NCBI GenBank assembly: GCA_046754465.1
Contig: JBHHVU010000012.1
Location: 1,850-65,849 of the forward strand
Reading direction: 5' to 3'
Origin: Nitrospinaceae bacterium
Lineage (GTDB): Bacteria > Nitrospinota > Nitrospinia > Nitrospinales > VA-1
DNA: 64,000 nucleotides
The notes beneath the pieces were generated by a model. The model saw only the letters and a program-made list of their open reading frames with translations, did not search any database and had not been told where the DNA came from. The position numbers and the translations under genes are program-made. Positions 6,015 to 35,207 of the stretch are shown here, one piece after another (position 1 is the stretch's first letter; each line of letters begins with the position of its first letter).

Positions 6015-7259
6015 TCAGCCCAAAAACCTGGAATAAATTTCACAAGGTTCAAAATGCGCCGGTCCACACGCTGGTCCGGGGAGGGGTTGTTCGATCACCG
6101 TCAACCGAACCCTGCCATTCTCAAGAAAATCGAGGACCATAAAACCCGCCCCATCCTTTGCAGCGTGGGCGAAAAGCGACCGGTCGCCATGCCACACCCT
6201 TCCCGCCCGGGAAGCGGTGCCGAGGCCGCTCACCAGGAAATATTTCGCGCCAGCCCTTCCCCCGCCTTCGATCACCTGAAGATCGTGCTCGTGACCCGAT
6301 GCGTAAATAATAGGTGCGCCCCTTTTCCCCGCGGCCGCTTCCAGTACCTTCTCCACAGCCCGTTTCATTTTCAGGTAAACCGGATGATTCATTTCCTGCG
6401 GACTGAAATAAACATTGATTCGCCCCCACTGCTTAATCATGAAAAAGAAATCCCCCAGACCTTTAAAAAAATAGTTTCCGGAATGTTCCCCCCAGGATTG
6501 CAGGGGATGATGGGCGGCGACGACCACCCACCGGTCTTTCGTTTTGGCATCGGTCAATTGAAGTTTCAAGGCCTGGAGCACCTCTTGTTCCGTCGCCCGC
6601 GAACACCCGCCCCGATGGTTGCGGCCGGGTTTCTCGTACTGATGTAGCCACCACTGGGTATCGAGCACCACCAGAGCAGCTTTACCGTTTTCACCTCCCA
6701 GCAAAACCGTTTTGGGTCCGGGACATCCCTTTTCCGGAATCAGGGCAACGTTTAGGTGGCCCGTTTTTTTTGAACCGGAAATATACCCACCCAAATTCCT
6801 GATCCGTTTCCATCCTTTCGTGCCCCCATTATCCCAGTCGTGATTGCCCGGCACAAATATGCCTTGGGCCCCGCTTTCCCGCGCCACGTTTATCTGCGCA
6901 TCGATCCTCATTTCGGCGCAAGCCCGCCGCTCGCAGTTCTCATCCTCCGCCTGGGGCAGGTTATCCTCGTCCGGCAAACCCTGTTCATAGATATTGTCGC
7001 CGAGAAAAACAACGGTGGATTTATCCGGAAGAAGTTTGGCGTAATTCTGAAGGGCTATGAGAATGGGCTTCTCCTTCATTCTCCTGCCTTCCCGGTCCCA
7101 GGCCGGCGCGCCCGCGTCACCGATCAAAAGAAGCCGATGGTTCACATCGGCTTGCTTCGCGAGGGCGCTCAAACAAACACCCCCCTGGCAATAGGTGAAG
7201 GATTCGTTACAAGCCGCCACCCCGATCCAGGTCATCGCAAAAAACAAGACTCTGATCAT
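6015..7259 (-). CDS. Calcineurin-like metallophosphoesterase, probable lipoprotein
   Basis: Motifs LIGDAG, FLGDNIY, PGNHDW, AHHP, SGHEH. Start placed at ATG 7259, which gives signal MIRVLFFAMTWIGVAAC with a lipobox (ORF track start 7304). Confidence 0.85.
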   Translation of the reverse strand: MIRVLFFAMTWIGVAACNESFTYCQGGVCLSALAKQADVNHRLLLIGDAGAPAWDREGRRMKEKPILIALQNYAKLLPDKSTVVFLGDNIYEQGLPDEDNLPQAEDENCERRACAEMRIDAQINVARESGAQGIFVPGNHDWDNGGTKGWKRIRNLGGYISGSKKTGHLNVALIPEKGCPGPKTVLLGGENGKAALVVLDTQWWLHQYEKPGRNHRGGCSRATEQEVLQALKLQLTDAKTKDRWVVVAAHHPLQSWGEHSGNYFFKGLGDFFFMIKQWGRINVYFSPQEMNHPVYLKMKRAVEKVLEAAAGKRGAPIIYASGHEHDLQVIEGGGRAGAKYFLVSGLGTASRAGRVWHGDRSLFAHAAKDGAGFMVLDFLENGRVRLTVIEQPLPGPACGPAHFEPCEIYSRFLG

Positions 7260-7305
7260 GGATCCGCAATCTCCCTGGAGGATGAGAAAACGATGGAGGG
7301 ACACG

Positions 7306-8370
7306 TCAGGGGTTCACCCACAACCAGTGACGCCTGAGACCGGCCAGGGTTTTTCCCAGGTTCCACAAACATTTCAGTCCCATATAAATACCCAGGGCCG
7401 CCATCAGTTTTAAGTTCCCATCCCCTGTGAGCAGGTGCACGTACCCGTCCGCGAACAAAAAAACAATACCCGCCGTCGAGAAAAAATCCGGATAAGGATG
7501 TTTCCCATGACGAAAATAACTGTCCATGACCTTGCCAATATAGTCACCGCAGTAAAAAGCAAGAATAAACCAGCCCGCGGACCGTGGCAGGGTATTTTCC
7601 GCCAGGGCGATGCTGAGCAAAAAACTTCCGAAAACGAAATTGGTGAATTGAGGGGGACTGTATCCGAGGCGTTTGAAAATATCGAGAACGGTTAACAAAT
7701 ATCCCATTCCCCCCAGGAGAATGAGTATCCAGTAACCGGGGATACCGTTCCAAAGGGGCGTCCGCCAAAACGCCTGTCCGGCGGGAAAGAGACAGGAAAG
7801 GTAAAAAATTAACAAGAAAAAAATTCCCTCCAGGGAACCTATCGGTCCAAAATAAAGTTGTCCCCGTTCCCTTTCCTCCATCATGGTGGCCGCAAAAGCC
7901 AGGTAAGATAACCAGAGAAGGGGATAAAAAACCGCGGGCTCTATGGGGATTAAAGCGAAACAAGCGGCCAGGGCAATCGCGCCGTTATAAACATCGAAAT
8001 AATGGTCCATGAATTCCCCAAGGGGTGAACAGGTTCCGGTCACCTTGGCCTGCATGCCATCCAAAATATCCCCCACCATGTAGAAGTGAATTAAAAAGGC
8101 AAACACGATCGCCAAAACGGCCACGCTGAATTTATGGGGATGAAAAACAAGATACAGCATCCCCCACATCGCCGCACAGGAAACCAGGGTGATCCAGTTG
8201 GCGGTCAATTTACGTGGGATCCATTGGAAATACAGGGAAACGTAATATTTCTTCACCAAGGGTTCCAGCAGCGACTTGTTGACACAGTTGTACCGGTATT
8301 CCCTAACGGGATTTTCACGTTTCCCGGTAATATTCGGACGTTCCTTCAATAAACTTTGGAGGGGTTCCAT
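7306..8370 (-). CDS. CDP-alcohol phosphotransferase, eukaryote-type choline/ethanolamine phosphotransferase (CEPT/CPT1/EPT1-like)
   Basis: CDP-AP signature DILDGMQAKVTGTCSPLGEFMDHYFD; N-terminal YRYNCVNKSLLEPL and GQLYFG segments; about 10 hydrophobic segments. Confidence 0.8.
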   Translation of the reverse strand: MEPLQSLLKERPNITGKRENPVREYRYNCVNKSLLEPLVKKYYVSLYFQWIPRKLTANWITLVSCAAMWGMLYLVFHPHKFSVAVLAIVFAFLIHFYMVGDILDGMQAKVTGTCSPLGEFMDHYFDVYNGAIALAACFALIPIEPAVFYPLLWLSYLAFAATMMEERERGQLYFGPIGSLEGIFFLLIFYLSCLFPAGQAFWRTPLWNGIPGYWILILLGGMGYLLTVLDIFKRLGYSPPQFTNFVFGSFLLSIALAENTLPRSAGWFILAFYCGDYIGKVMDSYFRHGKHPYPDFFSTAGIVFLFADGYVHLLTGDGNLKLMAALGIYMGLKCLWNLGKTLAGLRRHWLWVNP

Positions 8371-8670: not shown

Positions 8671-9372
8671 ATGATTAAGGTTTGTCTGACCATAGATATG
8701 GAACCCGATTGCCCGCCTTTCCTGAATGGATTCCGCGGCATTGAGGAAGGCATCGGCCCCTTGCTAAGCTTGCTGAAGGAAGAAAAGGTAAAAACCACCT
8801 TTTTTTCGACCGGCCAGGTAGCAAAAAAATATCCACGAACGATTCGGGATATTGTGTCTTCGGGCCATGAACTGGGGTGCCATGGGGAGAGTCATCGGGA
8901 TTTTTGCACGATGGATCATGAAACCGCCGAAGCGGAAATTGAGGACGCCTCGGGAGTTCTGCGGCAATTCGCGCCCGTCACATCATTCCGGGCCCCTTAT
9001 CTGAAATTTCCCGAAATTTACCTGACTCTGCTGGAGGCTCACGGCTTTCTCCTGGACTCTTCGCAAGCCAAATACAAGGTCTCTTACTATCGAAAATCCA
9101 TTTCCACGAAACTCAAACGGATCCCCGTATCGGTCACCTCTTCTGTCCTTCGTCTACCCCCATGGATACGCACCCCTTACCTTGGGGCATTGAGCAGTCC
9201 CATCGTTTTATTTGTTCATCCCTGGGAGTTTGTCGATTGGCGCAAGGAAAAACTTCGATTGGATTGCCGATTTAAAACGGGAGTTCTGGCGCTCGATTGC
9301 CTGCGGTCCGTTATAAGGTTTTACGCGGGGAAAAATGCCGTCTTTCTTAGGATGGAAGAACTTCACGACTAA
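8671..9372 (+). CDS. NodB/CE4 polysaccharide deacetylase family protein
   Basis: LTIDME, TFF, HELGCHGESH, FRAPY, VHPWE motifs; no signal peptide, so probably cytoplasmic. Confidence 0.88.
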   Translation: MIKVCLTIDMEPDCPPFLNGFRGIEEGIGPLLSLLKEEKVKTTFFSTGQVAKKYPRTIRDIVSSGHELGCHGESHRDFCTMDHETAEAEIEDASGVLRQFAPVTSFRAPYLKFPEIYLTLLEAHGFLLDSSQAKYKVSYYRKSISTKLKRIPVSVTSSVLRLPPWIRTPYLGALSSPIVLFVHPWEFVDWRKEKLRLDCRFKTGVLALDCLRSVIRFYAGKNAVFLRMEELHD

Positions 9373-9450: not shown

Positions 9451-11517
9451 CTAAAAATTCACGGGAATTTTCCCGGCGGGCCTTTTGTTCAAGGATTTCT
9501 TGGGAGTCCCGGGCTTTATTAAATAGTTCTCATCCCAAACGCGGTTTTGTTCTATCAGGTACGACCAGTAATCGATCCGTTGGCTCCACTGTTTCACGGC
9601 ATCGGGGGGAAAAGGCGTTCCCTGGAGGGAAGTCAGGAACTTCGGTTTGGGCAGGAAAGATCGGGTCACCCAGAAGGCCTCCGGGTTGCCGGCTTGCACA
9701 TAGAGGGAAAAATCGCCCTGGTCGACGCGGAATCCCGCATCGTGGATGGCCACGGCGGTTCGATGATGCCGGGGAATGTCTTCAAAAAGGTCGTTTCCCA
9801 TGGAGGCGAACGCCCGGCCGTCGCCGGCCATGGCGAGGAGGGTCGGCATCAAATCCACATGACTGGCGGGAATCAATTCTTTCCGCGGAGCGAGCCCCAC
9901 CAAACATTCCGGGCCGTAAATGATGGCGGAGGTCCAGACTCCGGAATCCACCGGCATGCCCCGCAAATGTTCCGCCACCCAATCCCTGGTATTGTAAGCG
10001 TGGTCTCCAATGACAATAATAATGGTATTGTCTTTTTTTCTCCGCTTCTCCAGAACATCCAGAACGCGCCCGATATGATGATCCAGGTTTTTCAGGGTCA
10101 GGTTATAACGGGTGGGGATATCATCAATCCCGCCCGTATCCACGCGGTAGGAATCGCCCATCGCCGTCAGGGGAACAAAATAGGAATCTTCCAGGGTAAA
10201 CGGATAATGGGTACCGGCGTTGGCCACATAGGCAAAAATGGGCTGATCGGGCCGGGAGCCGTCGTGATTCCGAATCAAACTCAACAGATGGTCCATAATC
10301 AGCCCATCCCCTATTCTTCGGGTAATAAGCAGTTTGTTTTCGGGAAGTTCAAAGTCAAGGTGGTCGTACCATTTCCGGGCCCATTCCAACTGGTTATCAT
10401 AACTGGGATTCCCACCCCAAAGAATCATGGTGTGATACCCCAAATCCTTCAACCGCTTCGGAAGGGCGTCGACCTGGAGATCCAGAAAGTTCGAGACCAC
10501 ATATTTATTCCGATGGGGTAAAAGGGAGGTATTTATGGAATAAAAGGCGCGGACACTGGGGCCTCCATTGGAAATATAGCGTGGGAAAACCACAGATTTC
10601 CGGGCGAGTTGGTCCAACCGGGGAGTATAACTCGGCTTCGGCCCAAACAACCCGTATCCCACATCACTGCCACGCAATGACTCCACGACGAATAATAGGA
10701 TGTCCGGCAATTCACCCTGCTCATCGTTACAGTTCACTTCCCTTGGATGACCTGCCCGGATTATGGGGTATTCCGGACTCATCCATTCCTCCCCAGCCGC
10801 GAGGTCAATTCCCTCGCGAAGATTTTCAATGGCGGCCTGGGCATTCACCGGAGCCGGGGTCCGGTCGATCTTAAGAAATGAGTCCAGGAACAACCATTCC
10901 GCCGGCTTCAACATTATGGGGGTTAAGGGGTGGGAAATAAAGCGGGACAGGGACCCTACCCCCGCGGCCAATAAGAGAAAAAGGATCAAGGGGATTGATG
11001 GTTTGTATTTTGGAGTCCTTTTAAAATAAAGAAGGCATCCTATCCCCAAAACCCACCATGCGGCAAAAACAATCCCCAAGGCAGGGATCACATAGTCCAT
11101 ATCGTTGAATAAAGGTTCATAGAATGAGCTGGAAATCAGGCTGGGGGTCAAATAAGTCACCATGATGGCGGGGGTAAATCGCTGCCCCAGATATCGCACC
11201 AATCCAAAATCAATCTGACCCAACAGGATGATGACCGCGAAAAAGACCACTGCGGATACGGTAATCAGCGGCCGGACCGGCCTCAACAGTTTCCATAAAA
11301 TTAAAAACCCGGCCCCCGTCAGGGAAAGCACCAGGAGGTGATACAATCCGCCCACGAACAAGACACTCAAGGGTGAAGCCACCAACTTGTAACCATTGGG
11401 GTCGGTGCCAAAATAATGAAACACCATGCCCGCAAAACGGGCCACGATAGCCACGGCAATGGCCATGGCGATGGGATGTGAAAGATTGGGAGGTATTCTT
11501 TTAATTAAATTTGCCAT
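9451..11517 (-). CDS. LtaS/EptA-like membrane phospho-headgroup transferase (alkaline phosphatase superfamily), paralog 2
   Basis: About 5 N-terminal TM helices, then FVVESLRG (metal Glu), NGGPS (nucleophile position), THYPF, NLDHHIG, IGDH. Confidence 0.82.
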   Translation of the reverse strand: MANLIKRIPPNLSHPIAMAIAVAIVARFAGMVFHYFGTDPNGYKLVASPLSVLFVGGLYHLLVLSLTGAGFLILWKLLRPVRPLITVSAVVFFAVIILLGQIDFGLVRYLGQRFTPAIMVTYLTPSLISSSFYEPLFNDMDYVIPALGIVFAAWWVLGIGCLLYFKRTPKYKPSIPLILFLLLAAGVGSLSRFISHPLTPIMLKPAEWLFLDSFLKIDRTPAPVNAQAAIENLREGIDLAAGEEWMSPEYPIIRAGHPREVNCNDEQGELPDILLFVVESLRGSDVGYGLFGPKPSYTPRLDQLARKSVVFPRYISNGGPSVRAFYSINTSLLPHRNKYVVSNFLDLQVDALPKRLKDLGYHTMILWGGNPSYDNQLEWARKWYDHLDFELPENKLLITRRIGDGLIMDHLLSLIRNHDGSRPDQPIFAYVANAGTHYPFTLEDSYFVPLTAMGDSYRVDTGGIDDIPTRYNLTLKNLDHHIGRVLDVLEKRRKKDNTIIIVIGDHAYNTRDWVAEHLRGMPVDSGVWTSAIIYGPECLVGLAPRKELIPASHVDLMPTLLAMAGDGRAFASMGNDLFEDIPRHHRTAVAIHDAGFRVDQGDFSLYVQAGNPEAFWVTRSFLPKPKFLTSLQGTPFPPDAVKQWSQRIDYWSYLIEQNRVWDENYLIKPGTPKKSLNKRPAGKIPVNF

Positions 11518-11519
11518 TC

Positions 11520-17230: not shown

Positions 17231-17341
17231 CATGTTTCCATTTTCATCCTCAATGACACCGGGAATTTTCCTAACGCTTTGCCCTGGAAAATTCCTGGAA
17301 ATCCTTCAACCGCCAATATCCGTTCCGGGTTTGTTGAACCG

Positions 17342-27100: not shown

Positions 27101-30100
27101 CGGGGCAGGGGGTGGGTATCCAGGGCGGATTCCTTCTCCAACCTGGGACCCCGGGCAAACAGGAGTGTCTGAAGGCAATCTGCATGGCTGGTTTCGCCCA
27201 AACCGCTGATCGAAGTGAATCCCGCGTCCTTCAAGACCGTTCCCCATTCCTTGAAAGACAAGGCGCGGCGGCAGGTTTCCCCCGGTTCCACGGAACCCAG
27301 CCGCAGCGCTCCGGATATCAATTCCGTCCAACCGGCGGACCGGGTGGTTTCCAAAGGGACAAAAAGTCCCTCGGAGGACAACAGTTGGCGGATATTTCCA
27401 AGCGCCCGCGAGGTATTCCTGACCGAGGGAAAAAGGTTGGAACACAAAATCAGGTCAAAGGAATGCGCGTCCCATCCCTGGGACAGGGGATCGGCCTCAA
27501 TATCCAACTGCTGGTATTTCGCGAAGGGAAATTCCCTGAACTTCCGGGCCGCTTTTTCCAGGACCCGTTCCGACGAATCCGAAAACACGTATTCCGATAT
27601 TTCCGGATTCAACCGCTGCATAACATAGAAAGCGGATCCTCCTTTTCCGGCGCCCAACTCCAGGACCTTTAATTTTCTTCCTTCCGGAAGCCGGTCCATC
27701 GCCAGACCGATCAATTCCTGAATCAATGCGCGATAGACCCGGTAGTTGAACGCATCCTGGTAAAAATGTTCCCAGAGCGGATCGTCTTCCCGAAGAACCT
27801 CTAGAAAACTCCCCGCCCCATCATTAAGGAACCGGGCCAGATAATCCCCGGCATTGCGCAGCAAATTCAGTTCCGCCATGTAATCCGGAAACCGGCGGAT
27901 CAGTGATTGCCAGATTTCCCCCGGGTTTTCTCGCGGAGGAGTGGATTGGATTTCCCACCGGTCCCCTTCCCTGCTCAATATTCCCTGGTTCTCCAGGACA
28001 TGGAAGCCGAGCGCGAGACCGGAAGAGCGTTTGGGATTCAATCCCCATCGGTCGGCCAGGGCATCGATGGAAAACGAGGTTCCGGGTTCAAACCGGAACC
28101 CCAGCGACTCCAGGGCGCCTGCCACGCAGGCGGAGCACAGGCGTTCCAATTGAGGTTCCAGGGAATCGTAGTAAAGGTTCCGCCTGAACCTTTTGGCCCA
28201 AAGGGAGGCCCGGGGTTTCAGCGCATCGGTTAATTCACCGGGAGAGGGAAAAAATTCCGCGCCTCTGAAAGTCTTTTCTGATCCCGCGGGAACGGAGGGT
28301 TCCCAGTTCCATTCATACAACCAGTTTTCGGGATTGTCGGAATCGTTGGTCCGGGAATGATCGAGGGCCCGGCACCGAAACCCTTGGCAATCGATCCACA
28401 CCTTTCCGGAGCCGTCGAAAAAATTCAAATCCGCTTCGAAATGGTTATTGCTCAACTTCACGGCGCGGGCATGGACCCAAAGCGGATGCACCGGCGAACC
28501 GTGGAATGTGATTTTCCCCACCCCTACGGGGAGAAAAAGTTTGTTATCAAAAGTTTCTGATTGGGAACCCAGAAGCGCGCATAGCTGAAATCCCGCATCC
28601 AGCAGAGAAGGATGGATCCGGTACGGCCGGACATCAATCCCCAGGGCATCCGGGTTTTTTATCAGTCCCAACGCTTCTTTATCCCCCCTCCACGCCCGTT
28701 CAATTCCCCGGAAAGCAGGACCGTACTGCAATCCAATTTTCTGAAAGGCATCGTAGAGTCCCTCGGCGGAAGTTTCCTGGCCGCACCGTTTCCGAATCTC
28801 CTCCCGATCCACCGTTTCCGGGGTACCGGGGGAGCCCTGACGCTGGAGCGTTGCGGAGGCGTGCAGGGTCCAGGACTGATTCGTCCGGTCGGCAAGATTG
28901 TAAATGGTCAGGGAACCATCGGAAGGATCAAAGGCCGTCTGCATTTTTACTCCCCGGTTTCTGGGAAGAAACATCGCATTGTGGAATTCGACCGATTCCA
29001 GAACGCAGCCGGACTCGTTGGAAATTTTCAGGCCGGCGGCCAGGGCCATCTCCACAAAACCGGCGCCGGGAAACAAGTTCGCTTTTTTGACGACATGGTC
29101 CCCCAGATAAGTATATTCTCTTTTGTCCAATCGGGTCTGCCAGACGGGATGGGCGCCTTCAATTCCCCGGCCCAAGAAGGGGTGGACATTCTTTTCCATG
29201 GGGTCAATCCCTTTTTCCTCTCTGTCGTGCCAGAACCGCTCCTTTTGCCAGGGATAACTGGGGAGGGAAACGCAACGTCCCCCACGGGAATGAACCTGTT
29301 TCCAATCGACGGTCATTCCCCGGCAATAAAGAGCCGCCAGGGAACCTAAAAGGACCCTGCGGTCTTCCTCGTTCCGGTTCAGCGAGGCCAACACCACCCC
29401 ACTTCGGCTCTGGCGGGAAAAACATTCAGAAATCCCTGGTCCCAGAACCGGATGCGGCGCCAATTCCAGGAAGGTGTTGTACTCATCCAGAACCAGCTTT
29501 TCGGCGGCTTTATAGAACAAAACGGGTTTCCGAACATTTTCCCACCAGTACTCCTCGTCCATCCGCTCCCCCATTTCTATTTCACCCCTCACGGTGGAAT
29601 AGAAGGGGAGGACGGCGGGCCTGCCCCGCAAATTCCTCAAGGATTCCAGCAATTCCTTCCGTGCCGGTTCCATCTGGTGGCTATGGAAGGCGTATTCCAC
29701 ATTCAGGTACCGGCAAAATATTTCCCGGTGCAAGAGGGGACCGATCACTTTCTCCAGGGCAACGGAATCGCCGGACAGGGTGACCGATTTGGGTCCATTG
29801 ACGGCGGCGATGGAGACATCCTCCCAATATCCCTTCAGAGCCTCCGTCGCCTCCGCGGCGGAAAGCCCCACCACGACCATCTTTCCCTTTCTGTACATGG
29901 GATGCAACAGCCTGCCGCGATGGTAGATGATCTGCACTGCGTCTTCCAGGCGGTAAATTCCAGCCACATAGGCGGCCGCCGCTTCCCCCATGCTATGGCC
30001 AATAACCGCTTGCGGAATGACTCCCCAGGACCGCCATAATTCCGCCAAACCCACCTGCAGCGAAAAAATCGCCGCCTGGGTGATGTGGGTTTCGTTGATC

Positions 30101-31878
30101 CGCGAATGGCTTTCCGAAGCCGTCAACTCTTTCAACAAGGACCAATTCGCATGGCGGCCGAAAAGTTCATCGCACCGTTGCAGCGTTTCCCGGAAAACAG
30201 GCTCCTCGTCCAGAAGTTGGCGTCCCATCCCCCACCACTGAGGCCCCTGCCCTGAAAAGACAAATACCAGTTTGGGCGACGCCCCCCGGGTTTTCCGTCC
30301 GGAGGCCCACCCCGTTTGCCGCTCCCCATTCACCACCGCTTGAAGATTCGCTTTCATCTCCTCCACCGACCGCCCCACCAGCGCCAGGCGGTGATCATGG
30401 TGACTCCGCCGGACGCTGGCGGTATAACAAACATCGTTCAAAGCGGTGAGGGACCAGTTTTTTTCCTCGTCAAAGAATTCAAGATATTTTTCGGTGAACT
30501 CCTTAAGCGCCTTGGGACAGCGTGCCGACAAGGGCAAACAAAACCACCGCGGGCGGGTCAAACTTGCACTGGAGGGAAGTGGATCGGCCTCCGGCGGGGC
30601 TTCTTGAAGGATCACGTTGGCGTTGGTCCCCCCAAAACCAAAGGAATTCACTCCGGAGATCGCGGGACCGGGTGTTTCGGGCCAGGGGATAAGGGTTTGC
30701 GGCACCCGCAAACGATACTCCTCGAATTTGATGCTGGGATTGGGGTGATTGAAATGCAGGTTGGGAGGAATCTGGCGGTGTCTCAAGGCCAGGACGCTTT
30801 TGATGAAGCTGGCGATGCCTGAAGCAGATTCCAAATGCCCGATATTGGATTTCACCGAACCGATAAAACAATATTCCCCGGGCGGACGGCTTTCCACCAG
30901 CACTTCCCCCTGCGCATTGGCTTCAATGGGGTCGCCCACCGGCGTTCCCGTTCCATGGGCTTCCACGAACTGGATCTGATGGGGCGCGATACCGGCCTGA
31001 CGGCAAGCTTTTCTCAACAACGTCTTCTGGGATTCCAAATCGGGCACCGGCATTCCCGGGGTGCGGCCATCCTGGTTGACCACGGTGGAAAGCACGAGGG
31101 CGCCAATGGGGTCTTTATCCTCCAAAGCCTTGGCAAGCGGTTTTAAAACGACGATTCCAGCGCCTTCGCCGCGGACATACCCGTTTCCCCCGGCATCGAA
31201 GGACTTACAGCGGCCATCCTGGGAGAGCATCCCCCCCTTGCCAAGAGCTATGGTGGTATCCGGAGATAAAATGATATTGACCCCGCCCGCCAGGGCCAAT
31301 TCGGACTCGCCATTCCAAATACTGCGGCAGGCCAGATGCACCGCCACCAGAGAGGAGGAACAGGCGGTGTCCACCGCCAGGCTCGGCCCCTTGAAATCGA
31401 AAAAATAAGAAAGACGATTGGCGGCTACGCTGAGGGCCACCCCCATTCCCACATGGCTGTCAACCATATGCAGATCGTTTTTCATAATATCCCTGAATTC
31501 GACTCCGGAAATACCTATAAAAACCCCCGTCCTGCTTCCCGCAAGCCTTTCCGGTACCTGACCGGCATCTTCCAGGGCCTGCCAGGCGCACTCGAGCAGA
31601 ACCCTTTGCTGAGGGTCTACATGGGCGGCCTCGCGCGGCGAAATTTCAAAAAAACGAGGATCGAACATGGCGACGGAATTGATGAAACCGCCCCAGCGGG
31701 AAACCGTCTTTCCCGGCGCCCTGGGATTGTGGCTGTAATAGGCCATGGCATTCCAGCGGCTTTCCGGAATTTCCGTAATGGCATCCCTGCCTTGCCGAAG
31801 CAAATCCCAATAGGCTTCCGGGCTATCCACCCCGCCGGGGAAACGGCAACTCAATCCAATAACGGCAATGGGGTCCAT
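24190..31878 (-). CDS. Single-module highly reducing type I PKS (KS-AT-DH-MT-like-ER-KR-ACP), no thioesterase
   Basis: KS DTACSSS/EAHGTGT/NIGHLE; AT GHSMG/YAFHS; DH DHVVKKANLFPGAG/HPSLLDAGFQ; MT ELGAGKGG; ER LIHAASGGVGLAA; KR ITGGLGGFG/VLDD/GQANYVAAN; ACP LGMDSL; short acidic tail. Confidence 0.96.
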   Translation of the reverse strand: MDPIAVIGLSCRFPGGVDSPEAYWDLLRQGRDAITEIPESRWNAMAYYSHNPRAPGKTVSRWGGFINSVAMFDPRFFEISPREAAHVDPQQRVLLECAWQALEDAGQVPERLAGSRTGVFIGISGVEFRDIMKNDLHMVDSHVGMGVALSVAANRLSYFFDFKGPSLAVDTACSSSLVAVHLACRSIWNGESELALAGGVNIILSPDTTIALGKGGMLSQDGRCKSFDAGGNGYVRGEGAGIVVLKPLAKALEDKDPIGALVLSTVVNQDGRTPGMPVPDLESQKTLLRKACRQAGIAPHQIQFVEAHGTGTPVGDPIEANAQGEVLVESRPPGEYCFIGSVKSNIGHLESASGIASFIKSVLALRHRQIPPNLHFNHPNPSIKFEEYRLRVPQTLIPWPETPGPAISGVNSFGFGGTNANVILQEAPPEADPLPSSASLTRPRWFCLPLSARCPKALKEFTEKYLEFFDEEKNWSLTALNDVCYTASVRRSHHDHRLALVGRSVEEMKANLQAVVNGERQTGWASGRKTRGASPKLVFVFSGQGPQWWGMGRQLLDEEPVFRETLQRCDELFGRHANWSLLKELTASESHSRINETHITQAAIFSLQVGLAELWRSWGVIPQAVIGHSMGEAAAAYVAGIYRLEDAVQIIYHRGRLLHPMYRKGKMVVVGLSAAEATEALKGYWEDVSIAAVNGPKSVTLSGDSVALEKVIGPLLHREIFCRYLNVEYAFHSHQMEPARKELLESLRNLRGRPAVLPFYSTVRGEIEMGERMDEEYWWENVRKPVLFYKAAEKLVLDEYNTFLELAPHPVLGPGISECFSRQSRSGVVLASLNRNEEDRRVLLGSLAALYCRGMTVDWKQVHSRGGRCVSLPSYPWQKERFWHDREEKGIDPMEKNVHPFLGRGIEGAHPVWQTRLDKREYTYLGDHVVKKANLFPGAGFVEMALAAGLKISNESGCVLESVEFHNAMFLPRNRGVKMQTAFDPSDGSLTIYNLADRTNQSWTLHASATLQRQGSPGTPETVDREEIRKRCGQETSAEGLYDAFQKIGLQYGPAFRGIERAWRGDKEALGLIKNPDALGIDVRPYRIHPSLLDAGFQLCALLGSQSETFDNKLFLPVGVGKITFHGSPVHPLWVHARAVKLSNNHFEADLNFFDGSGKVWIDCQGFRCRALDHSRTNDSDNPENWLYEWNWEPSVPAGSEKTFRGAEFFPSPGELTDALKPRASLWAKRFRRNLYYDSLEPQLERLCSACVAGALESLGFRFEPGTSFSIDALADRWGLNPKRSSGLALGFHVLENQGILSREGDRWEIQSTPPRENPGEIWQSLIRRFPDYMAELNLLRNAGDYLARFLNDGAGSFLEVLREDDPLWEHFYQDAFNYRVYRALIQELIGLAMDRLPEGRKLKVLELGAGKGGSAFYVMQRLNPEISEYVFSDSSERVLEKAARKFREFPFAKYQQLDIEADPLSQGWDAHSFDLILCSNLFPSVRNTSRALGNIRQLLSSEGLFVPLETTRSAGWTELISGALRLGSVEPGETCRRALSFKEWGTVLKDAGFTSISGLGETSHADCLQTLLFARGPRLEKESALDTHPLPRPDSRGSWLIFEDDSGQGKKLGESLKRIGENCVLVGKGKTFKKLRDNRVIIRPDCPEDMGCLIDSVRKESSPLRGIVHLWSLDMPETSELSLNDLETGEREGCLNIVYLVQELAQIHWPRASRLFLVTRGGQHVSPADTLSSVAQSPVWGLGQVIQGEHANLRCKMVDLDPMNPPDGVEGLVHELWREDAEVEIALRGNQRFVRRLVRPGPKENIVKREARDKASGMPPFVLEIPAPGILENFKLRETVRRQPGPGEVEIQVRAAALNFRDVMIAMGLLPEEMDGKEHLWETLGLECSGIITALGEGVDDFQVGDEVLALSNGGCFGAYALVPALSTVHKPENLSFEESATLPAAFLTAYYMLHRAGNLRKGERVLIHAASGGVGLAAVEIAMRAGAEVFATAGSEQKRDFLRALGVKHVFDSRSLAFADEILEITHGEGVDIVLNSLAGPFVTKSVSLLKPLGRFLEIGKRDIYQNNKVALRPFLKGISFITMVDFKQGFRDFGPEFRSIIMEIMERVRQGELHSLPFRVFPISNIVSAFRTMAQARHIGKIVVSMEEPALKIIPDTPPPAAFKDNVTYLITGGLGGFGLAAAKWMVKQGARHLALMGRKGASSDDAKAGVAILRGLGAEVQVIQGDVARQEDATRALRHIDTKMPPLKGILHGAMVLDDGLLIHLSRERLHRVMAPKVHGAWNLHQQSLKRSLDFFIMFSSVANIIGNPGQANYVAANTFLESLVHYRRAKGLPGQVIHWAPLLEVGIAARQKMNERLEGQGMMSLTPRQAVDMLGKLIQGNPVQAAVFPVNWRRLGPLFPSQHMPPRFSQVWEEEFHVESDDELGVEVGDPIRPKLLAEPLEDRPQVLGDYLQKCIARVLGLPPSKLEWDQPLTELGMDSLMAMELIVRIERDLEITLPVVRFLGGPSIEQMVPWMLEEMSLNESAEEDSEENVESSGNGKGTGKLEVASERQTEEV

Positions 31879-32586
31879 CAGCGATCAACCCTTTCAAAAT
31901 GAATCATAGTTTCCTTCGCCGCCGTGTCAGGGAACATCAAACGGCGCCAATTTGATTTCAGGAGAACCCATCCAAAAAAATATTTTACTTTAGCCGAAAA
32001 TTTGTATAACAGTAATAAACTTTCCACCGGGGGCGGGGGGTTGCCCATCAGACAGGGACACGACCTGACCCCAAACATTCCCCATACCGAACCTCCTGGA
32101 CGGTCGGGGAAACGCGGAGCTGGTCCTGACAAATGACTTCATTTTTCCAATATCCTCTTTCGGCCGGGATGGGTGGGAAGGGGGCCGCTATCCCTAATCA
32201 TGAAAAAGCGGGCTAATTTCCCGGGCGTCGATTTTCGAAACGGCTTATTCCCCGTGCCACGATATCGAATGGCGTGGGGAGTCATTTTAAAGTGTATAAC
32301 CGTTGAAAATCAAATGATTTATTTGAATAAATATGGTTTACACCCCGTAAGAATTAAAGATCAAAGCGCTTATTGATATAGCGGTGATCCATTCCGCTCA
32401 AAATCCCCTGAACTCAAGGGGAAAAAACCGACTATTTTCCAAGGCGCCTTTTTATCCCGCGGCCCATCGGCGCTTAAAAGATAAATTTTTCAATCCAATT
32501 CTTTTCAAAAAACCGGATATCCGGCCGCACCCCAAGGGTCATGGCGGGTAATCCCGGGTGGCAATCTCGGATTCAAGGATGAAGCA

Positions 32587-33723
32587 ATGGTAATCGTCAA
32601 ACAGGTCAATGGAGATAAAAAAGGGATGAGGGATTTTATCGATTTTCCTTATTCCCATTACCGCCAGGATGAAAAATGGTGCCCTCCATTAAAAATAGAA
32701 AGGAAATTTTTTTTCAGTAAAAAGAATCCTTTCATGCGTCATAGCCGCATCGCGTTTTTCGTCGCCTATCAGGAAAACCGGCCAGTGGGACGCGTTACGG
32801 CTCATATGGATGAGATTTTCAACGATTATCACAAAACCCGTCAGGGGTTTTTCGGATTTTTTGAATCGGTCGAGAGCGCGGAGACCGCCGAAAAATTGAT
32901 GCGTTCCTGTGAAAACTGGATTGGATCCCAGGGCATGAATTCCTTGATCGGTCCCTTCAATTTTTCCACGAATCATGAGGTCGGTTTCCTGATCAAGGGA
33001 TTCGACAGACCCCCTATGCTGATGATGCCCTATACGAAAAAATACTATCCGGAATTGCTCTATCCCTTGGGGTACAAAAAGGAAAAAGAACTCCTTGCTT
33101 TCCGGCTGGACAAGGACACCCCCATTCCCGACTTATTTCGGCTCATGGCGGATCGGATAAAAAAGGAAGTGGGGGACTCGGTCCGGTTAAGAAACCTGGA
33201 CATGAAAAACCTGAAATCCGAACTCCGAATCATCCTGGATATTTACAATGATGCCTGGAGCAAGAACTGGGGATTCGTCCCCATGACGGATGGAGAAATC
33301 GACTCCATGGCCTGGCAACTCAAACTTTTCGCCATGACCGAATTCATCTATATTCTTTTCAAGGAGGGCGAACCCGCCGCCTTTTTGCTCATGCTTCCCG
33401 ATCTGAATGAAGGGTTGATTCATATCAAATCGGGAAAACTGTTTCCCACAGGCATTCTCAAACTCATTTTTTTCCGTAAATATATCCGGTCTGGAAGGGT
33501 GTTGCTCATGGGGGTCAAAAAGAAATTCAGGAACCAGGGCCTGGATATTCTCCTTTACAGCCGAATGATAAAAGACGGTTTCAGCAAAACATCCGATCAA
33601 CAAAGAAACGTGGAACTTTCCTGGATTCTCGAGGACAACAAAGTCATGGTGAATATTTTGAAAAGCCTGAACGCGGACCCTTATAAGAAATATCTGATTT
33701 TAAAGAAAACCCTGACCCCTTAA
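32587..33723 (+). CDS. GNAT-fold N-acyltransferase of the YghO / bacterial ceramide synthase (bCerS)-like family
   Basis: FIDFPYSHYRQDEKWCPPL, KNPF, VGRVTA, GFFGFFE, GPFNFSTNHEVGFLIKGFDRPPMLMMPY, YNDAWSKNWGFVPMT, PDLNE, ELSWILEDN match my recollection of this family. Confidence 0.75.
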   Translation: MVIVKQVNGDKKGMRDFIDFPYSHYRQDEKWCPPLKIERKFFFSKKNPFMRHSRIAFFVAYQENRPVGRVTAHMDEIFNDYHKTRQGFFGFFESVESAETAEKLMRSCENWIGSQGMNSLIGPFNFSTNHEVGFLIKGFDRPPMLMMPYTKKYYPELLYPLGYKKEKELLAFRLDKDTPIPDLFRLMADRIKKEVGDSVRLRNLDMKNLKSELRIILDIYNDAWSKNWGFVPMTDGEIDSMAWQLKLFAMTEFIYILFKEGEPAAFLLMLPDLNEGLIHIKSGKLFPTGILKLIFFRKYIRSGRVLLMGVKKKFRNQGLDILLYSRMIKDGFSKTSDQQRNVELSWILEDNKVMVNILKSLNADPYKKYLILKKTLTP

Positions 33724-35206: not shown

Positions 35207-35207
35207 A

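What the first reader, a model, noticed from the sequence alone, without database searches (positions are those of the whole stretch)
6015..33723. Candidate undescribed bacterial GPI/GIPC-like glycosyl-inositol-phospho(sphingo)lipid pathway built on a PKS
Seen: 14 contiguous genes, all lipid- or glycan-related. Known eukaryotic logic: PI synthase; PIG-A (GT4) adds GlcNAc; de-N-acetylation; flipping; DPM1 makes lipid-P-Man; three GT-C mannosyltransferases; alkaline-phosphatase-superfamily enzymes (PIG-N/O/G) add ethanolamine-P from PE; a metallophosphoesterase (PGAP5/Ted1/Cdc1) trims; Aur1 moves inositol-P to ceramide. The cluster has a functional counterpart for each: PIP synthase (23223), PIG-A-like GT4 (14723), NodB deacetylase (8671), UPF0104 flippase (13708), Dpm1-like GT2 (20557), three GT-Cs (17342, 18977, 21766), two LtaS/EptA-like transferases (9451, 11520), CEPT-like donor maker (7306), metallophosphoesterase (6015), Aur1-like (16157), bCerS-like (32587) and an HR-PKS for an acyl chain. 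Inferred: the product is a phospho-decorated (Man)n-HexN-inositol-P-ceramide or -DAG. Several counterparts are analogs rather than orthologs (NodB vs PIG-L, GT87 vs PIG-M). A mycobacterial PIM/LM-like glycerolipid is the main alternative. No SPT, ceramide reductase, Ino1 or transamidase is in the window. I cannot confirm novelty without a search.
Basis: partly seen in the sequence, partly recalled or inferred. Interest (0 to 1): 0.93.

Follow-up and report, generated by a model that had tools for sequence, protein, structure and literature searches.

The report
Bacterial glycosylated inositol-sphingolipid gene island
A subset of marine nitrite-oxidiser relatives (Nitrospinota) carries a conserved 29-kb gene island that most likely builds a sugar-decorated inositol-phosphate lipid on a ceramide anchor, a lipid type so far known from fungi, plants and, in a different form, mycobacteria.

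Summary
The island is co-inherited: in 120 Nitrospinota genomes the Aur1-like synthase, PIP synthase and a bCerS-like paralogue each occur in the same 11 genomes. GT4 and the GT87-like GT-C occur in 10 of those 11, the PKS in 9, NodB in 8 and LtaS-like genes in 5, with almost nothing in the other 109. Partial versions recur next to Aur1-like genes in Verrucomicrobiota and Pseudomonadota MAGs. The genome supplies the missing precursors elsewhere: MIPS on C66, and an Spt / bCerS-like / SDR operon on C25. The GT4's best solved relatives are PimA, BshA and MshA. One GT-C is GT87-like (PimE type) and the 354-aa CDP-alcohol transferase is CEPT-like. A distinct LptF lineage travels with the island.

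Best reading (0.6): a GIPC/PIM-hybrid outer-membrane glycolipid, glycosyl-inositol-phospho-ceramide, with a PKS-derived chain. The GPI analogy is functional only. No PIG-L, PgpA or transamidase family was found, GlcN is unproven, and no lipid or expression data exist. It is a new variant of known kinds (Bacteroides IPC, mycobacterial PIM, PKS-sphingolipids).

The parts
4545..5819 (+). LptF-family permease of a lineage that travels with the island (candidate dedicated exporter subunit).
   Evidence: NCBIfam LptF 224.6 bits against a cut-off of 230. It is one of three PF03739 genes in the genome and is 42% identical to the kdsB-adjacent copy on C48. In the tree, the 10 valid cluster-adjacent copies form a clade (SH-aLRT 96) separate from the LptFs of the organism's own family. 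An adjacent copy is present in all 11 Aur1-positive genomes.
6015..7304 (-). Metallophosphoesterase, probably a periplasmic lipoprotein. Inferred role: trimming or remodelling of phosphodiester substituents.
   Evidence: PF00149 E 1.6e-6. GDNIY, GNHD and GHEH motifs and an N-terminal hydrophobic stretch ending ..VAAC. A 42%-identical homologue sits beside the island in L002, L006 and L076. No PDB relative.
7306..8370 (-). CEPT/CPT-like CDP-alcohol phosphotransferase. Inferred role: re-use of diacylglycerol, or synthesis of a phospho-alcohol lipid.
   Evidence: PF01066. The full DxxDGxxAKx8Gx3Dx3D motif was read. The only PDB hits are CEPT1 (4e-13) and CHPT1/Cpt1. It was not found in any of the 80 related loci.
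8671..9372 (+). CE4/NodB-family deacetylase with no signal peptide or TM segment. Inferred role: de-N-acetylation of a HexNAc head group.
   Evidence: PF01522 E 1.5e-19. Orthologues (62-70% identity) occur in 8 of 120 genomes, all Aur1-positive. It lacks the canonical TFDD motif but has D-x-E, H-x4-H-x3-H and RAPY.
9451..11517 (-). LtaS-like membrane phospho-alcohol transferase 1.
   Evidence: PF00884 E 1e-30 after an N-terminal region of about 260 aa with 5-6 TM segments. No C/SxPxR motif. Best PDB hits are VP1736 (2.9e-15) and LtaS (1e-5).
11520..13574 (-). LtaS-like membrane phospho-alcohol transferase 2, a tandem paralogue 64% identical to the first.
   Evidence: Orthologues occur in 5 of the 11 Aur1-positive genomes, always next to NodB, plus one 33%-identity hit in an Aur1-negative genome.
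13708..14697 (+). Flippase-like membrane protein (LPG_synthase_TM, formerly UPF0104).
   Evidence: PF03706 E 2.2e-33 and TIGR00374. It lies next to GT4 in 6 of 8 Nitrospinota loci and in L062 and L070. Heaver 2022 notes that a homologue of this family (BT_1521) neighbours both Bacteroides inositol clusters.
14723..15901 (-). Cytoplasmic GT4 glycosyltransferase. Inferred to make the first sugar-inositol bond.
   Evidence: GT4 domains. Best PDB relatives are PimA 7.5e-19 (full length), BshA 1.7e-18 and MshA 3.5e-13. Orthologues occur in 10 of 120 genomes, all Aur1-positive.
16241..17230 (+). Aur1/BT_1522-type inositol-phosphoceramide synthase (the ORF is open from 16157).
   Evidence: NF052609 E 4.8e-49, 167 bits against a cut-off of 480. 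Yeast AUR1 in the PDB at E 3e-15 over the catalytic region. PSTH and NHHYVID motifs. Present in 11 of 120 genomes.
17279..18877 (+). GT-C glycosyltransferase 1 (PMT_2/ArnT-like).
   Evidence: PF13231 E 0.0035. 4 of 10 family members hit PMT_2, best E 2.9e-8. 7 TM segments plus a C-terminal soluble part. No PDB hit.
18881..20512 (+). GT-C glycosyltransferase 2, a paralogue 41% identical to the first.
   Evidence: PF13231 E 0.0017; alignment A2. One or two such genes occur in 5 of 8 Nitrospinota loci and in L062.
20557..21486 (+). GT2 polyprenyl-phosphate sugar synthase (Dpm1/Ppm1/ArnC class). Inferred to make the donor for the GT-Cs.
   Evidence: PF00535 E 1.2e-28. The top NCBIfam hits are AglJ, ArnC, dolichyl-P hexose transferase and PpgS, all below their cut-offs. 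Present in 8 of 8 Nitrospinota loci.
21766..23253 (+). GT87-like GT-C (PimE-type polyprenyl-phosphate-mannose-dependent mannosyltransferase family).
   Evidence: No Pfam hit on its own sequence. In the ESM Atlas, 22 of the 30 nearest clusters carry GT87 alone and 8 carry GT87 plus PF05007, with score 0.99 and structural TM 0.79/0.82. phmmer relatives carry PF09594, some with PF05007, or are named GT87. Present in 10 of 120 genomes, all Aur1-positive.
23223..23897 (-). Phosphatidylinositol-phosphate (or AIP-type) synthase. The ORF is open to 24053 and lies downstream of the PKS on the same strand.
   Evidence: NF040950 148 bits, NF045883 130 bits (cut-off 170), NF052561 129 bits. CDP-OH motif intact. 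Present in 11 of 120 genomes, the same 11 as Aur1. Homologues align from residue ~52 of the ORF.
24190..31878 (-). Single-module highly reducing type I PKS (KS-AT-DH-cMT-ER-KR-ACP) with no release domain. Inferred to supply a methyl-branched saturated acyl chain.
   Evidence: Pfam domains. Catalytic motifs intact. Orthologues at 64% identity or more occur in 9 of the 11 Aur1-positive genomes. In the Opitutaceae locus L071, a related PKS sits between an AONS and a bCerS-like / Aur1-like pair.
32587..33723 (+). bCerS-like N-acyltransferase, the island-specific paralogue.
   Evidence: 36% identical over its full length (E 5e-85) to the gene between the Spt-like and SDR genes on C25. Weak GNAT signal. 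Orthologues at 62-71% identity occur in all 11 Aur1-positive genomes and in none of the other 109, 60 of which carry only a 33-41% copy; where I compared coordinates, that copy lies next to the Spt-like gene.

Best explanation
The region is a self-contained, laterally patchy biosynthetic island for a complex outer-membrane glycolipid. Its core is inositol phosphate linked to ceramide, that is, a bacterial glycosyl-inositol-phospho-ceramide that borrows mycobacterial PIM logic.

Steps supported by homology:
- MIPS (elsewhere in the genome) makes inositol phosphate.
- The PIP synthase couples it to a CDP-activated lipid.
- The Aur1/BT_1522-type PAP2 enzyme moves inositol phosphate onto ceramide.
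- Ceramide comes from the genome's Spt / bCerS-like / SDR operon, together with the island's own bCerS-like paralogue.

Inferred steps:
- The release-domain-less HR-PKS supplies a methyl-branched saturated chain that enters the ceramide, as N-acyl chain through the bCerS paralogue or as long-chain base through Spt.
- A cytoplasmic PimA/MshA/BshA-like GT4 puts the first hexose or HexNAc on the inositol.
- Where NodB is present, it de-N-acetylates that sugar.
- The LPG_synthase_TM-type protein flips the intermediate.
- In the periplasm, a GT87-like GT-C and up to two PMT_2-like GT-Cs add sugars from a polyprenyl-phosphate sugar made by the GT2.
- LtaS-like enzymes add phospho-alcohol groups from phospholipid donors, and the lipoprotein phosphoesterase trims them.
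- The CEPT-like enzyme re-uses the diacylglycerol that is released.
- An island-linked LptF paralogue helps export the product.

The order of the Aur1 step relative to glycosylation is open. So are the identities of the sugars and of the phospho-alcohol.
For: Family assignments.

Co-inheritance in 120 Nitrospinota genomes:
- Aur1-like 11, and PIPS in the same 11.
- Island-type bCerS-like 11 of 11, 0 of 109 elsewhere.
- GT4 10 of 11 and GTC3 10 of 11, 0 of 109 elsewhere.
- PKS 9 of 11.
- NodB 8 of 11, 0 of 109 elsewhere.
- LtaS-like 5 of 11, plus one distant hit elsewhere.

Gene order is conserved in 8 Nitrospinota loci.

Linkage in other phyla:
- L062, Verrucomicrobiota: Flip, LtaS-like, GT4, GT-C, Aur1-like.
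- L070, Pseudomonadota: NodB, Flip, GT4, Aur1-like, GT32, PIPS, MIPS, LtaS-like, bCerS-like.
- L071, Opitutaceae: AONS, PKS, bCerS-like, Aur1-like.
- L079, Vicinamibacteria: Spt, bCerS-like, Aur1-like.

Precursors in the genome: MIPS and the Spt-like operon.

In 6 island-bearing genomes the island-type bCerS-like gene is the only copy found, although 5 of them keep the 79-81%-identical Spt-like gene (the sixth, G049, is 67% complete). This fits a working ceramide synthase.

The island-linked LptF clade parallels the sphingolipid-specific LptF2/G2/C2 of Caulobacter (abstract read; passages).

Precedents read in passages: the Bacteroides BT_1522/1523/1526 pathway and PKS-derived sphinganines.
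Against: - No lipid, transcript or biochemical datum exists. No RNA run was available.
- The NCBIfam equivalog cut-offs are not reached for the IPC synthase (167 against 480), the PIPS (130 against 170) or the Spt-like protein (458 against 640).
- No PgpA-type PIP phosphatase was found in the 97%-complete genome, so the PIP-to-PI step has no assigned enzyme.
- bCerS membership could not be tested against the Caulobacter or Bacteroides reference sequences.
- GT2, NodB, PMT_2-type GT-C and a phospho-alcohol transferase are also the parts list of Arn/Ept-type lipid A modification. Co-inheritance inside one phylum could partly reflect hitch-hiking on one island.
- The related genomes are kin, so the counts are not independent.
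- Only an AcpS-type PPTase was found to activate the PKS.
- The CEPT-like gene is unique to this genome among the 80 loci examined.
- GT-C numbers, NodB, LtaS-like genes and the PKS all vary between genomes, so there is no single fixed product.
Confidence: 0.6

Rival explanations
1. PIM/LM-like glycerolipid. The glycan is built on phosphatidylinositol with a diacylglycerol anchor, exactly as in mycobacteria (PIPS, PimA-like GT4, flipping, GT87 and other GT-Cs fed by a Ppm1-like GT2). The Aur1-like enzyme makes only plain inositol phosphoceramide as a separate side product.
For: The best solved relative of the GT4 is PimA. GTC3 is GT87-like; by recalled CAZy knowledge, the characterised members of that family act on PIM/LM. 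PIPS and the GT2 fit as well. CerR is periplasmic in Caulobacter, which makes a cytoplasmic GT4 acting on finished IPC awkward and PI the simpler acceptor.
Against: The Aur1-like gene and an island-specific bCerS-like paralogue are the most constant island members (11 of 11). Aur1-like is translationally close to the GT-C genes in one same-strand run (gaps of 48, 3 and 44 bp). In L062 the Aur1-like gene sits with GT4, GT-C, LtaS-like and Flip with no PIPS in the 12 kb seen. A head-group transfer from glycosyl-PI to ceramide would reconcile both readings.
Confidence: 0.2
2. Mosaic island. A simple PIPS plus Aur1 inositol-phosphoceramide module lies beside an unrelated envelope-modification module (Arn/Ept-like: GT2, NodB-type deacylase, PMT_2-type GT-C, phospho-alcohol transferases acting on lipid A, core or another glycan) and a separate PKS lipid. 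Nothing but physical linkage connects them.
For: The GT2 hits ArnC (54 bits) and NodB weakly hits ArnD. The PMT_2 family includes ArnT. LtaS-like proteins share a superfamily with EptA. The island abuts an LptF gene. The decorating genes are variably present. PKS G+C (0.56) differs from the rest of the island (0.50-0.53).
Against: None of the GT4, GTC3 or NodB orthologues occurs in the 109 Aur1-negative genomes. The same gene families re-associate with Aur1-like genes in rearranged order in two other phyla. GT87 and PimA-likeness point to an inositol acceptor. The adjacent LptF is a separate island-linked lineage, not the kdsB-linked copy.
Confidence: 0.13
3. Protein O-glycosylation or another polymer. 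The PMT_2-like GT-Cs with the polyprenyl-phosphate sugar synthase glycosylate periplasmic proteins or a polysaccharide, not a lipid.
For: PF13231 is named for protein mannosyltransferases. No acceptor can be read from sequence.
Against: The matches to PMT_2 are weak. These GT-C genes lie between the Aur1-like gene and the GT2 in one same-strand run, and one lies immediately upstream of the Aur1-like gene in L062. No candidate target proteins were seen in the island.
Confidence: 0.04

Closest known systems
Bacteroides thetaiotaomicron inositol-lipid cluster BT_1522-BT_1526 (Heaver et al. 2022, PMC9246714; passages read)
   Same: MIPS, then PIP synthase, then an Aur1-type inositol-phosphoceramide synthase, with an LPG-synthase-like (flippase-like) neighbour. 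Ceramide comes from an Spt pathway encoded elsewhere.
   Different: Here there is no PgpA-type PIP phosphatase and MIPS is unlinked. The island adds a GT4, NodB, GT2, three GT-Cs, LtaS-like enzymes, a phosphoesterase, a PKS, its own bCerS-like paralogue and an LptF paralogue. Scores stay below the Bacteroides equivalog cut-offs. No glycosylated product is reported for Bacteroides in the passages read.
Mycobacterial PIM/LM/LAM pathway (PgsA1 PIPS, PimA/PimB GT4, PimE and other GT87 or GT-C enzymes, Ppm1). Pathway outline recalled; PimA and MshA names come from PDB titles.
   Same: PIP synthase; a PimA-like cytoplasmic GT4; flipping; then periplasmic GT87/GT-C extension from a polyprenyl-phosphate sugar made by a GT2.
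   Different: The organism is Gram-negative. The island has an Aur1-type ceramide step and a ceramide-synthase paralogue, a NodB deacetylase, LtaS-like phospho-alcohol transferases and a PKS. No PatA-type acyltransferase was looked for.
Eukaryotic GPI and fungal/plant GIPC biosynthesis
   Same: The overall logic matches: an inositol lipid, a cytoplasmic GT4 sugar, de-N-acetylation, flipping, lumenal or periplasmic GT-C mannosylation from a lipid-phosphate sugar, phospho-alcohol side chains from an alkaline-phosphatase-superfamily enzyme, and metallophosphoesterase trimming. Aur1 is a true homologue.
   Different: Except for Aur1, the counterparts are analogues and not orthologues. No PIG-L family, no transamidase-type peptidase and no PIG-A domain hit were found. 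There is no evidence of protein anchoring.
PKS-derived sphingolipids, SgaAB of Pseudomonas fluorescens MYb115 (Peters et al. 2025, PMC12134224; abstract and passages read)
   Same: A single-module iterative type I PKS without a release domain is tied to sphingolipid synthesis. The Opitutaceae locus L071 has the PKS-AONS pair directly beside bCerS-like and Aur1-like genes.
   Different: In the window the PKS has a C-methyltransferase domain. It is followed by PIPS rather than by an alpha-oxoamine synthase, and the only Spt-like gene is on another contig.
Caulobacter sphingolipid locus with Spt, bCerS, CerR and LptF2/G2/C2 (PMC11087976 and PMC11324152 passages; 2026 preprint abstract)
   Same: An Spt / bCerS-like / epimerase-family reductase trio is present (on C25). 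A dedicated LptF-family paralogue is linked to the complex-sphingolipid genes.
   Different: Only LptF is duplicated here (three PF03739 genes). The head group is inositol-based, not phosphoglycerate-based. In 6 island-bearing genomes the ordinary LptF was not found at all.

Membership tests
Aur1/BT_1522-type inositol-phosphoceramide synthase | PAP2-type catalytic His/His/Asp motifs aligned with AUR1 | tested here: met
   The phmmer alignment to yeast AUR1 (9vj3, E 3e-15) covers PSxH and SxxYLxHHYxxD. PSTH is at 256 and NHHYVID at 295-301. These residues are invariant in an 18-sequence alignment.
Aur1/BT_1522-type inositol-phosphoceramide synthase | Score above the NCBIfam equivalog cut-off (NF052609, 480 bits) | tested here: not met
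   167.4 bits, E 4.8e-49. It is a distant member of the family, not a Bacteroides-type equivalog.
Aur1/BT_1522-type inositol-phosphoceramide synthase | Genomic association with a PIP/PI synthase and an inositol-phosphate synthase | tested here: met
   PIPS occurs in 45 of 80 Aur1-centred loci and MIPS in 15 of 80. PIPS occurs in exactly the same 11 of 120 genomes, and MIPS in all 11.
Phosphatidylinositol-phosphate synthase (CDP-alcohol phosphatidyltransferase) | CDP-OH motif D-x2-D-G-x2-A-R/K-x8-G-x3-D-x3-D, and best matches to PIPS/AIPS models | tested here: met
   The motif was read. NF040950 scores 148 bits, NF045883 130 bits and NF052561 129 bits. All are below the equivalog cut-offs of 180, 170 and 350.
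Bacteroides BT-like inositol lipid pathway | PgpA-type PIP phosphatase (BT_1525) | tested here: not met
   PF04608 gave 0 hits in the 97%-complete genome, while the control found it in B. thetaiotaomicron.
GT87 (PimE-type GT-C) | Match to PF09594 | tested here: inconclusive
   The protein's own sequence has no Pfam hit even at E 0.1. However, phmmer relatives at E 1e-16 to 1e-25 carry PF09594, a 38%-identical Opitutus protein is named GT87, and Atlas feature and structure neighbours are GT87.
GT87 (PimE-type GT-C) | Polytopic GT-C membrane topology | tested here: met
   About 10 hydrophobic segments by a Kyte-Doolittle scan. The Atlas model has TM-scores of 0.79/0.82 to a GT87 cluster.
Bacterial ceramide synthase (bCerS) | Soluble GNAT-like acyltransferase encoded with Spt and a reductase | tested here: met
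   No TM segments. Weak PF00583 signal and GNAT-named Atlas clusters. The paralogue lies between the Spt-like and PF01370 SDR genes. A bCerS-like gene lies next to Spt or an AONS in L071 and L079, and in every genome whose coordinates I compared.
Bacterial ceramide synthase (bCerS) | Sequence homology to CCNA_01212 / BF9343_4218 | not testable with these tools
The primary paper (PMC8891067) is not held and no NCBIfam model matched.
Eukaryotic GPI pathway | PIG-L/LmbE-type GlcNAc-PI de-N-acetylase | tested here: not met
   PF02585 gave 0 hits in the genome. A CE4/NodB enzyme is the only candidate analogue.
Eukaryotic GPI pathway | GPI transamidase (Peptidase_C13) | tested here: not met
   PF01650 gave 0 hits in the genome.
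Eukaryotic GPI pathway | PIG-A-type GT4 that transfers GlcNAc to PI | tested here: inconclusive
   GT4 domains only; no PIGA domain is among the 7 Pfam hits. The nearest solved proteins are PimA (a Man transferase), BshA and MshA (GlcNAc transferases). The donor sugar cannot be read from this.
LtaS/OpgB/EptA-type phospho-alcohol transferases | N-terminal multi-TM domain plus an extracytoplasmic alkaline-phosphatase-fold domain without the FGly sulfatase motif | tested here: met
   4-6 TM segments, then PF00884. No C/SxPxR motif. VP1736 and LtaS are among the PDB hits. Which alcohol phosphate is transferred was not testable.
SgaAB-type PKS sphingolipid cluster | Iterative type I PKS directly paired with an alpha-oxoamine synthase | tested here: not met
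   There is no AONS in the window. The three AONS genes lie on C66 (Kbl), C11 (BioF) and C25 (Spt-like). The pairing is present in the related Opitutaceae locus L071.

The most novel reading that the evidence does not exclude
These bacteria make a true GPI-core-like lipid, (hexose)n-GlcN-inositol-phosphate-ceramide with phospho-alcohol side chains. It is assembled cytoplasm-first and then periplasm-side by convergent analogues of the eukaryotic GPI machinery, carries a polyketide-derived tail, and is delivered to the outer leaflet by a dedicated LptF-containing Lpt machine. There it acts as a major surface lipid alongside LPS, or partly in its place. In 6 island-bearing genomes the ordinary LptF was not found.
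Probability: 0.15. Interest if true: 0.88.

Novelty: new variant of a known kind. Interest (0 to 1): 0.64.

Why it matters
- If the product is confirmed, it would be, as far as my searches show, the first bacterial glycosylated inositol phosphoceramide with an identified gene set. It would link three recently opened topics: bacterial inositol sphingolipids, PKS-derived sphingolipids, and Lpt-paralogue transport of sphingolipids.
- It would show that the 'cytoplasmic GT4, flip, GT-C extension from lipid-phosphate sugars' scheme for inositol lipids arose outside Actinobacteria and eukaryotes.
- Nitrospinota are the main marine nitrite oxidisers, so a distinctive, alkali-stable, methyl-branched inositol glycolipid could serve as a lineage-specific biomarker.
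- The wider survey suggests that plain inositol-phosphoceramide capacity (Aur1-like plus PIPS, with or without MIPS) is common in Bdellovibrionota. It also suggests that ceramide capacity is the rule in Nitrospinaceae. I did not find either point in the papers searched.

Tried and rejected
- PDB sequence and profile searches found nothing for GTC1, GTC3, the GTC1/2 profile A2, the GTC3 profile A3, the metallophosphoesterase (only E~0.3 noise) or the bCerS-like protein (E 0.085 noise).
- Rfam found nothing in the window.
- Promoter-like sites (12 found against 15.0 +/- 4.2 in shuffles) and terminator-like sites (46 against 34.5 +/- 5.9) were not informative.
- Expression: no RNA holder was listed. 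Four DNA runs from one study hold the stretch, two of them from a sample flagged as its possible source. I did not lay reads.
- A GT-C/Aur1 fusion and a Flip/LtaS fusion that my greedy ORF picker suggested in L062 were rejected. The tblastn hits lie in different frames, so these are adjacent genes.
- I first read the window's LptF as the ordinary housekeeping copy (after). The kdsB-adjacent C48 copy, the reciprocal search and the tree reversed that reading.
- In that tree, two rows (G042_adj and G008_g14) were wrong-frame ORFs with end branches of 1.6-1.7 on a stem of 9. The tree is a quick search with SH-aLRT support only.
- The C66 aminotransferase near MIPS was considered as Spt and rejected. 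It is Kbl (634 bits against a cut-off of 493) next to Tdh.
- The FGE-sulfatase gene at 34547-35233 was considered as a maturase for the 'sulfatase'-fold proteins and rejected. They lack the C/SxPxR motif and the gene block is not conserved with the island (0-1 of 80 loci).
- Literature: searches found no paper on Nitrospina/Nitrospinota inositol or sphingolipids, nor on a bacterial glucosaminyl- or glycosyl-inositol phosphoceramide. This covers only the held library.
Heaver Supplementary Table 5, Peters Supplementary Data 4 and the supplementary data of Stankeviciute 2022 and Ding 2024 may list Nitrospinota or similar clusters.
- Statements about GT87 substrates, GT32/MIPC synthases, Drosophila CPE synthase, the CE4 motif subgroup and PGAP5/Ted1/Cdc1 are recalled. 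They come from no call.

Full report
**What is there.** Between 6015 and 33723 the window carries 15 back-to-back genes with almost no spacer (gaps of -31 to 339 bp, except 708 bp before the last gene).

- a metallophosphoesterase;
- a 354-aa CDP-alcohol phosphotransferase;
- a NodB/CE4 deacetylase;
- two tandem TM plus sulfatase-fold proteins;
- an LPG_synthase_TM (ex-UPF0104) flippase-like protein;
- a GT4;
- a PAP2_3 protein;
- two weak PMT_2-type GT-Cs;
- a GT2;
- a Pfam-less 495-aa polytopic protein;
- a PIP/AIP synthase;
- a 2562-aa KS-AT-DH-cMT-ER-KR-ACP PKS;
- a 378-aa protein with a weak GNAT signal.

Catalytic motifs are intact in the proteins I checked.
- Both CDP-alcohol transferases have the full motif.
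- The LtaS-like pair lack the sulfatase C/SxPxR motif.
- The PAP2 protein has PSTH and NHHYVID.
- The phosphoesterase has GDNIY, GNHD and GHEH and a lipoprotein-like leader.
- The PKS has KS Cys/His/His, AT GHSMG, a cMT SAM motif, KR YxxxN and an ACP serine, and no release domain.

**Sharper placement of the uncertain genes.**
- The PAP2 protein hits the NCBIfam model 'phosphoinositol dihydroceramide synthase' (E 4.8e-49, below the equivalog cut-off). It aligns to the catalytic part of yeast AUR1 in the PDB (E 3e-15).
- The GT4's best solved relatives are PimA (7.5e-19, full length), BshA (1.7e-18) and MshA (3.5e-13). Going by the PDB titles, these are a phosphatidylinositol mannosyltransferase, a GlcNAc transferase acting on malate, and an inositol-3-phosphate glycosyltransferase. 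That MshA uses UDP-GlcNAc is recalled.
- The 354-aa transferase hits only CEPT1/CHPT1-type enzymes.
- The LtaS-like proteins sit nearest VP1736 and LtaS.
- The Pfam-less protein is GT87-like. In the Atlas, 22 of the 30 nearest clusters carry GT87 alone and 8 carry GT87 plus PF05007, with score 0.99 and structural TM about 0.8. Its phmmer relatives include proteins carrying PF09594, some with PF05007, and an Opitutus protein named GT87.
- In the GTC1/2 family, 4 of 10 members hit PMT_2 (best 2.9e-8). This family is unrelated to GTC3 by profile comparison (probability 6%).

**Who carries it.** The nearest named relatives of several island proteins are Nitrospinaceae/Nitrospinota MAGs. The genome is 3.3 Mb in 115 contigs, 97% complete and 53% G+C.

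**Is the clustering real?** I fetched 80 loci centred on Aur1-like genes and ran tblastn with each window protein (E <= 1e-10, at least 50% coverage).
- The 8 Nitrospinota loci keep the island. GT2 and PIPS are in 8 of 8, GTC3 in 7, Flip, GT4 and the PKS in 6 each, and GTC1/2-type genes in 5. NodB and the phosphoesterase are each in 2, the bCerS-like gene is in 2 and LtaS-like genes are in 1. The shortfalls are partly because the 10-kb flanks or the contigs end.
- The genes downstream of 33723 are not conserved with the island (0-1 of 80), and neither is the CEPT-like gene (0 of 80).
- Most Bdellovibrionota loci have only Aur1-like plus PIPS (PIPS is in 45 of 80 loci overall).

Across 120 genomes of the phylum:

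| Gene | Genomes with a match |
|---|---|
| Aur1-like | 11 (5 of 30 genera) |
| PIPS | the same 11 |
| Island-type bCerS-like (62-71% identity) | the same 11 |
| GTC3 | 10 of the 11 |
| GT4 | 10 of the 11 |
| PKS | 9 of the 11, plus an unrelated 41%-identical PKS in one other genome |
| NodB | 8 of the 11 |
| LtaS-like | 5 of the 11, plus one 33% hit elsewhere |

These genomes are kin, so the counts are not independent events. The cleaner test is other phyla.
- A Verrucomicrobiota MAG (L062) has Flip, LtaS-like, GT4, GT-C and Aur1-like.
- A Pseudomonadota MAG (L070) has NodB, Flip, GT4, Aur1-like, a GT32-type transferase, PIPS, MIPS, an LtaS-like protein and a bCerS-like gene.
- An Opitutaceae MAG (L071) has AONS, PKS, bCerS-like and Aur1-like in a row.
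- A Vicinamibacteria MAG (L079) has Spt, bCerS-like and Aur1-like.

**Precursors.** Both exist.
- MIPS lies on contig C66.
- The genome has three AONS-family genes: Kbl (beside Tdh), BioF (beside BioC), and a 442-aa protein whose best model is serine palmitoyltransferase (458 bits, below the cut-off of 640).
- That Spt-like gene heads an operon with a 373-aa unknown, a PF01370 SDR, another CDP-alcohol transferase and an HpnN-like RND transporter.
- The 373-aa unknown is a full-length paralogue of the window's 378-aa protein (36% identity, E 5e-85). These are the only two copies in the genome.
- The Spt-like gene is present at 70% identity or more and full length in 69 of 120 genomes by my count of the table. 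The Spt-adjacent bCerS-like type (33-41% identity to the window copy) is present in 60 Aur1-negative genomes.
- So ceramide capacity looks general in this lineage and the island is an add-on.
- In 6 island-bearing genomes only the island-type bCerS-like copy was found. Five of them keep the Spt-like gene at 79-81% identity; the sixth (G049) is 67% complete. This fits a working ceramide synthase.
- I could not compare either copy with the Caulobacter or Bacteroides reference enzymes, so bCerS membership rests on context.

**Gaps.**
- No PgpA-type PIP phosphatase was found.
- No PIG-L/LmbE deacetylase was found.
- No transamidase-type peptidase was found.
- Only an AcpS-type PPTase was found.
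- NodB is absent from 3 of the 11 island genomes, 2 of which keep GT4.
- The PKS is absent from 2 of the 11.
- There are no expression or lipid data.

**Export.**
- The LptF-like gene at 4545-5819 is one of three PF03739 genes in the genome.
- The copy on C48 lies beside kdsB and pyrG.
- The single LptFs of same-family Aur1-negative genomes are closer to the C48 copy (51-54% identity) than to the window copy (44-49%).
- In a quick ML tree (two faulty rows to be ignored) the 10 valid island-adjacent copies form one clade (SH-aLRT 96) that is sister to the LptFs of another family (SH-aLRT 99). The second copies group with the LptFs of the organism's own family (SH-aLRT 99).
- This parallels the sphingolipid-specific LptF2/G2/C2 of Caulobacter. 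Only LptF is duplicated here.
- In 6 island genomes, two of them 94-96% complete, the ordinary copy was not found.

**Interpretation.** The best-supported reading is an island for a glycosylated inositol-phospho-ceramide. It uses the known bacterial PIPS/Aur1 chemistry (Heaver 2022), then a PIM-like glycan-building scheme, and has a PKS-fed lipid tail for which a precedent exists (Peters 2025).

What the sequence cannot tell:
- whether the first sugar is GlcNAc or mannose;
- whether glycosylation precedes or follows transfer to ceramide;
- which phospho-alcohol the LtaS-like enzymes add;
- where the polyketide chain ends up.

The GPI comparison is a useful functional analogy but not a membership. 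Apart from Aur1, the defining families that I could test are absent.

The main rivals are a PIM-like glycerolipid with plain IPC as a by-product, and a mosaic of an IPC module with an Arn/Ept-like envelope-modification module.

**Novelty.**
- The components and the individual schemes are known.
- The combination, its occurrence in Nitrospinota, Verrucomicrobiota and a Pseudomonadota MAG, and the island-linked bCerS-like and LptF paralogues were not found in the held literature.
- Supplements could not be opened.
- I therefore rate it a new variant of a known kind, of solid but not exceptional interest until a lipid is shown.

Noticed in passing
G000 contig C66 (L094) 4064-11737: A second inositol module: HAD hydrolase, NTP-transferase, HpnL/flippase-like protein, MIPS, a DIPPS-like 399-aa CDP-alcohol transferase, a Gfo/Idh-type oxidoreductase and a class-III aminotransferase. 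The first five match the gene set of the unconfirmed 'alternative' CDP-inositol lipid cluster of Heaver 2022. MIPS is in 63 of 120 Nitrospinota genomes, far more than carry the Aur1-like gene.
   Followed up: partly
G000 contig C25 (L095) 3243-9963: A sphingolipid-type operon: Spt-like AONS, bCerS-like protein, PF01370 SDR, a 288-aa CDP-alcohol transferase (possibly a ceramide head-group enzyme) and an HpnN-like RND transporter. The Spt-like gene is conserved at 70% identity or more in 69 of 120 genomes.
   Followed up: partly
Loci L009-L081 (mostly Bdellovibrionota/Oligoflexia MAGs): Aur1-like genes there commonly sit with PIPS (45 of 80 loci over the whole set), MIPS (15 of 80), an RND transporter like the C25 one (24 of 80), a Gfo-type oxidoreductase (22 of 80) and a class-III aminotransferase (42 of 80). 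This hints at widespread inositol, perhaps amino-inositol, phosphoceramides in predatory bacteria.
   Followed up: no
window 33825-40560 (- strand): A contiguous same-strand block: MsrP-like molybdopterin oxidoreductase, FGE-sulfatase/EgtB-like domain protein, DUF547, a radical SAM protein with weak TrsS/Tes-like matches, DUF4197, a DUF748-like protein and DUF2062. It is not conserved with the island in the loci examined. Function unknown.
   Followed up: no
L062 1146-3416 and L070 5320-7659: Both other-phylum islands carry an ABC ATPase fused to a cyclic-nucleotide-binding domain. In L070 it comes with MacB-type permease, HlyD and TolC-like genes. This may be an alternative export route, replacing the LptF paralogue.
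   Followed up: no
Genomes G042, G043, G045, G047, G048, G049: Only the island-adjacent LptF lineage was found and no ordinary LptF. Two of these genomes are 94-96% complete and in 2-10 contigs. The island-linked copy may have taken over LPS export there.
   Followed up: partly
L004, L006, L008, L076, between GT4 and Aur1-like (about 6-9.8 kb in locus coordinates): Sister islands carry several extra kilobases here. They include a stand-alone MDR/enoyl-reductase-like gene matching PKS residues ~1835-2160 at 30-38% identity. The window lacks it.
   Followed up: no
L071 11143-20666: The Opitutaceae AONS-PKS-bCerS-Aur1 set is followed by Fic, sigma-70, RelA/SpoT-domain and phage-integrase genes. 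This suggests a mobile context.
   Followed up: no
window 24001-32000 versus 8001-22000: The PKS region is 56-57% G+C. The rest of the island is 50-53% and the genome 53%.
   Followed up: no
window 3362-4486 (+): A 374-aa protein with 6 hydrophobic segments and no family match. A stretch of about 90 residues is weakly conserved (35-40% identity) near the LptF paralogue in L007 and L076.
   Followed up: partly
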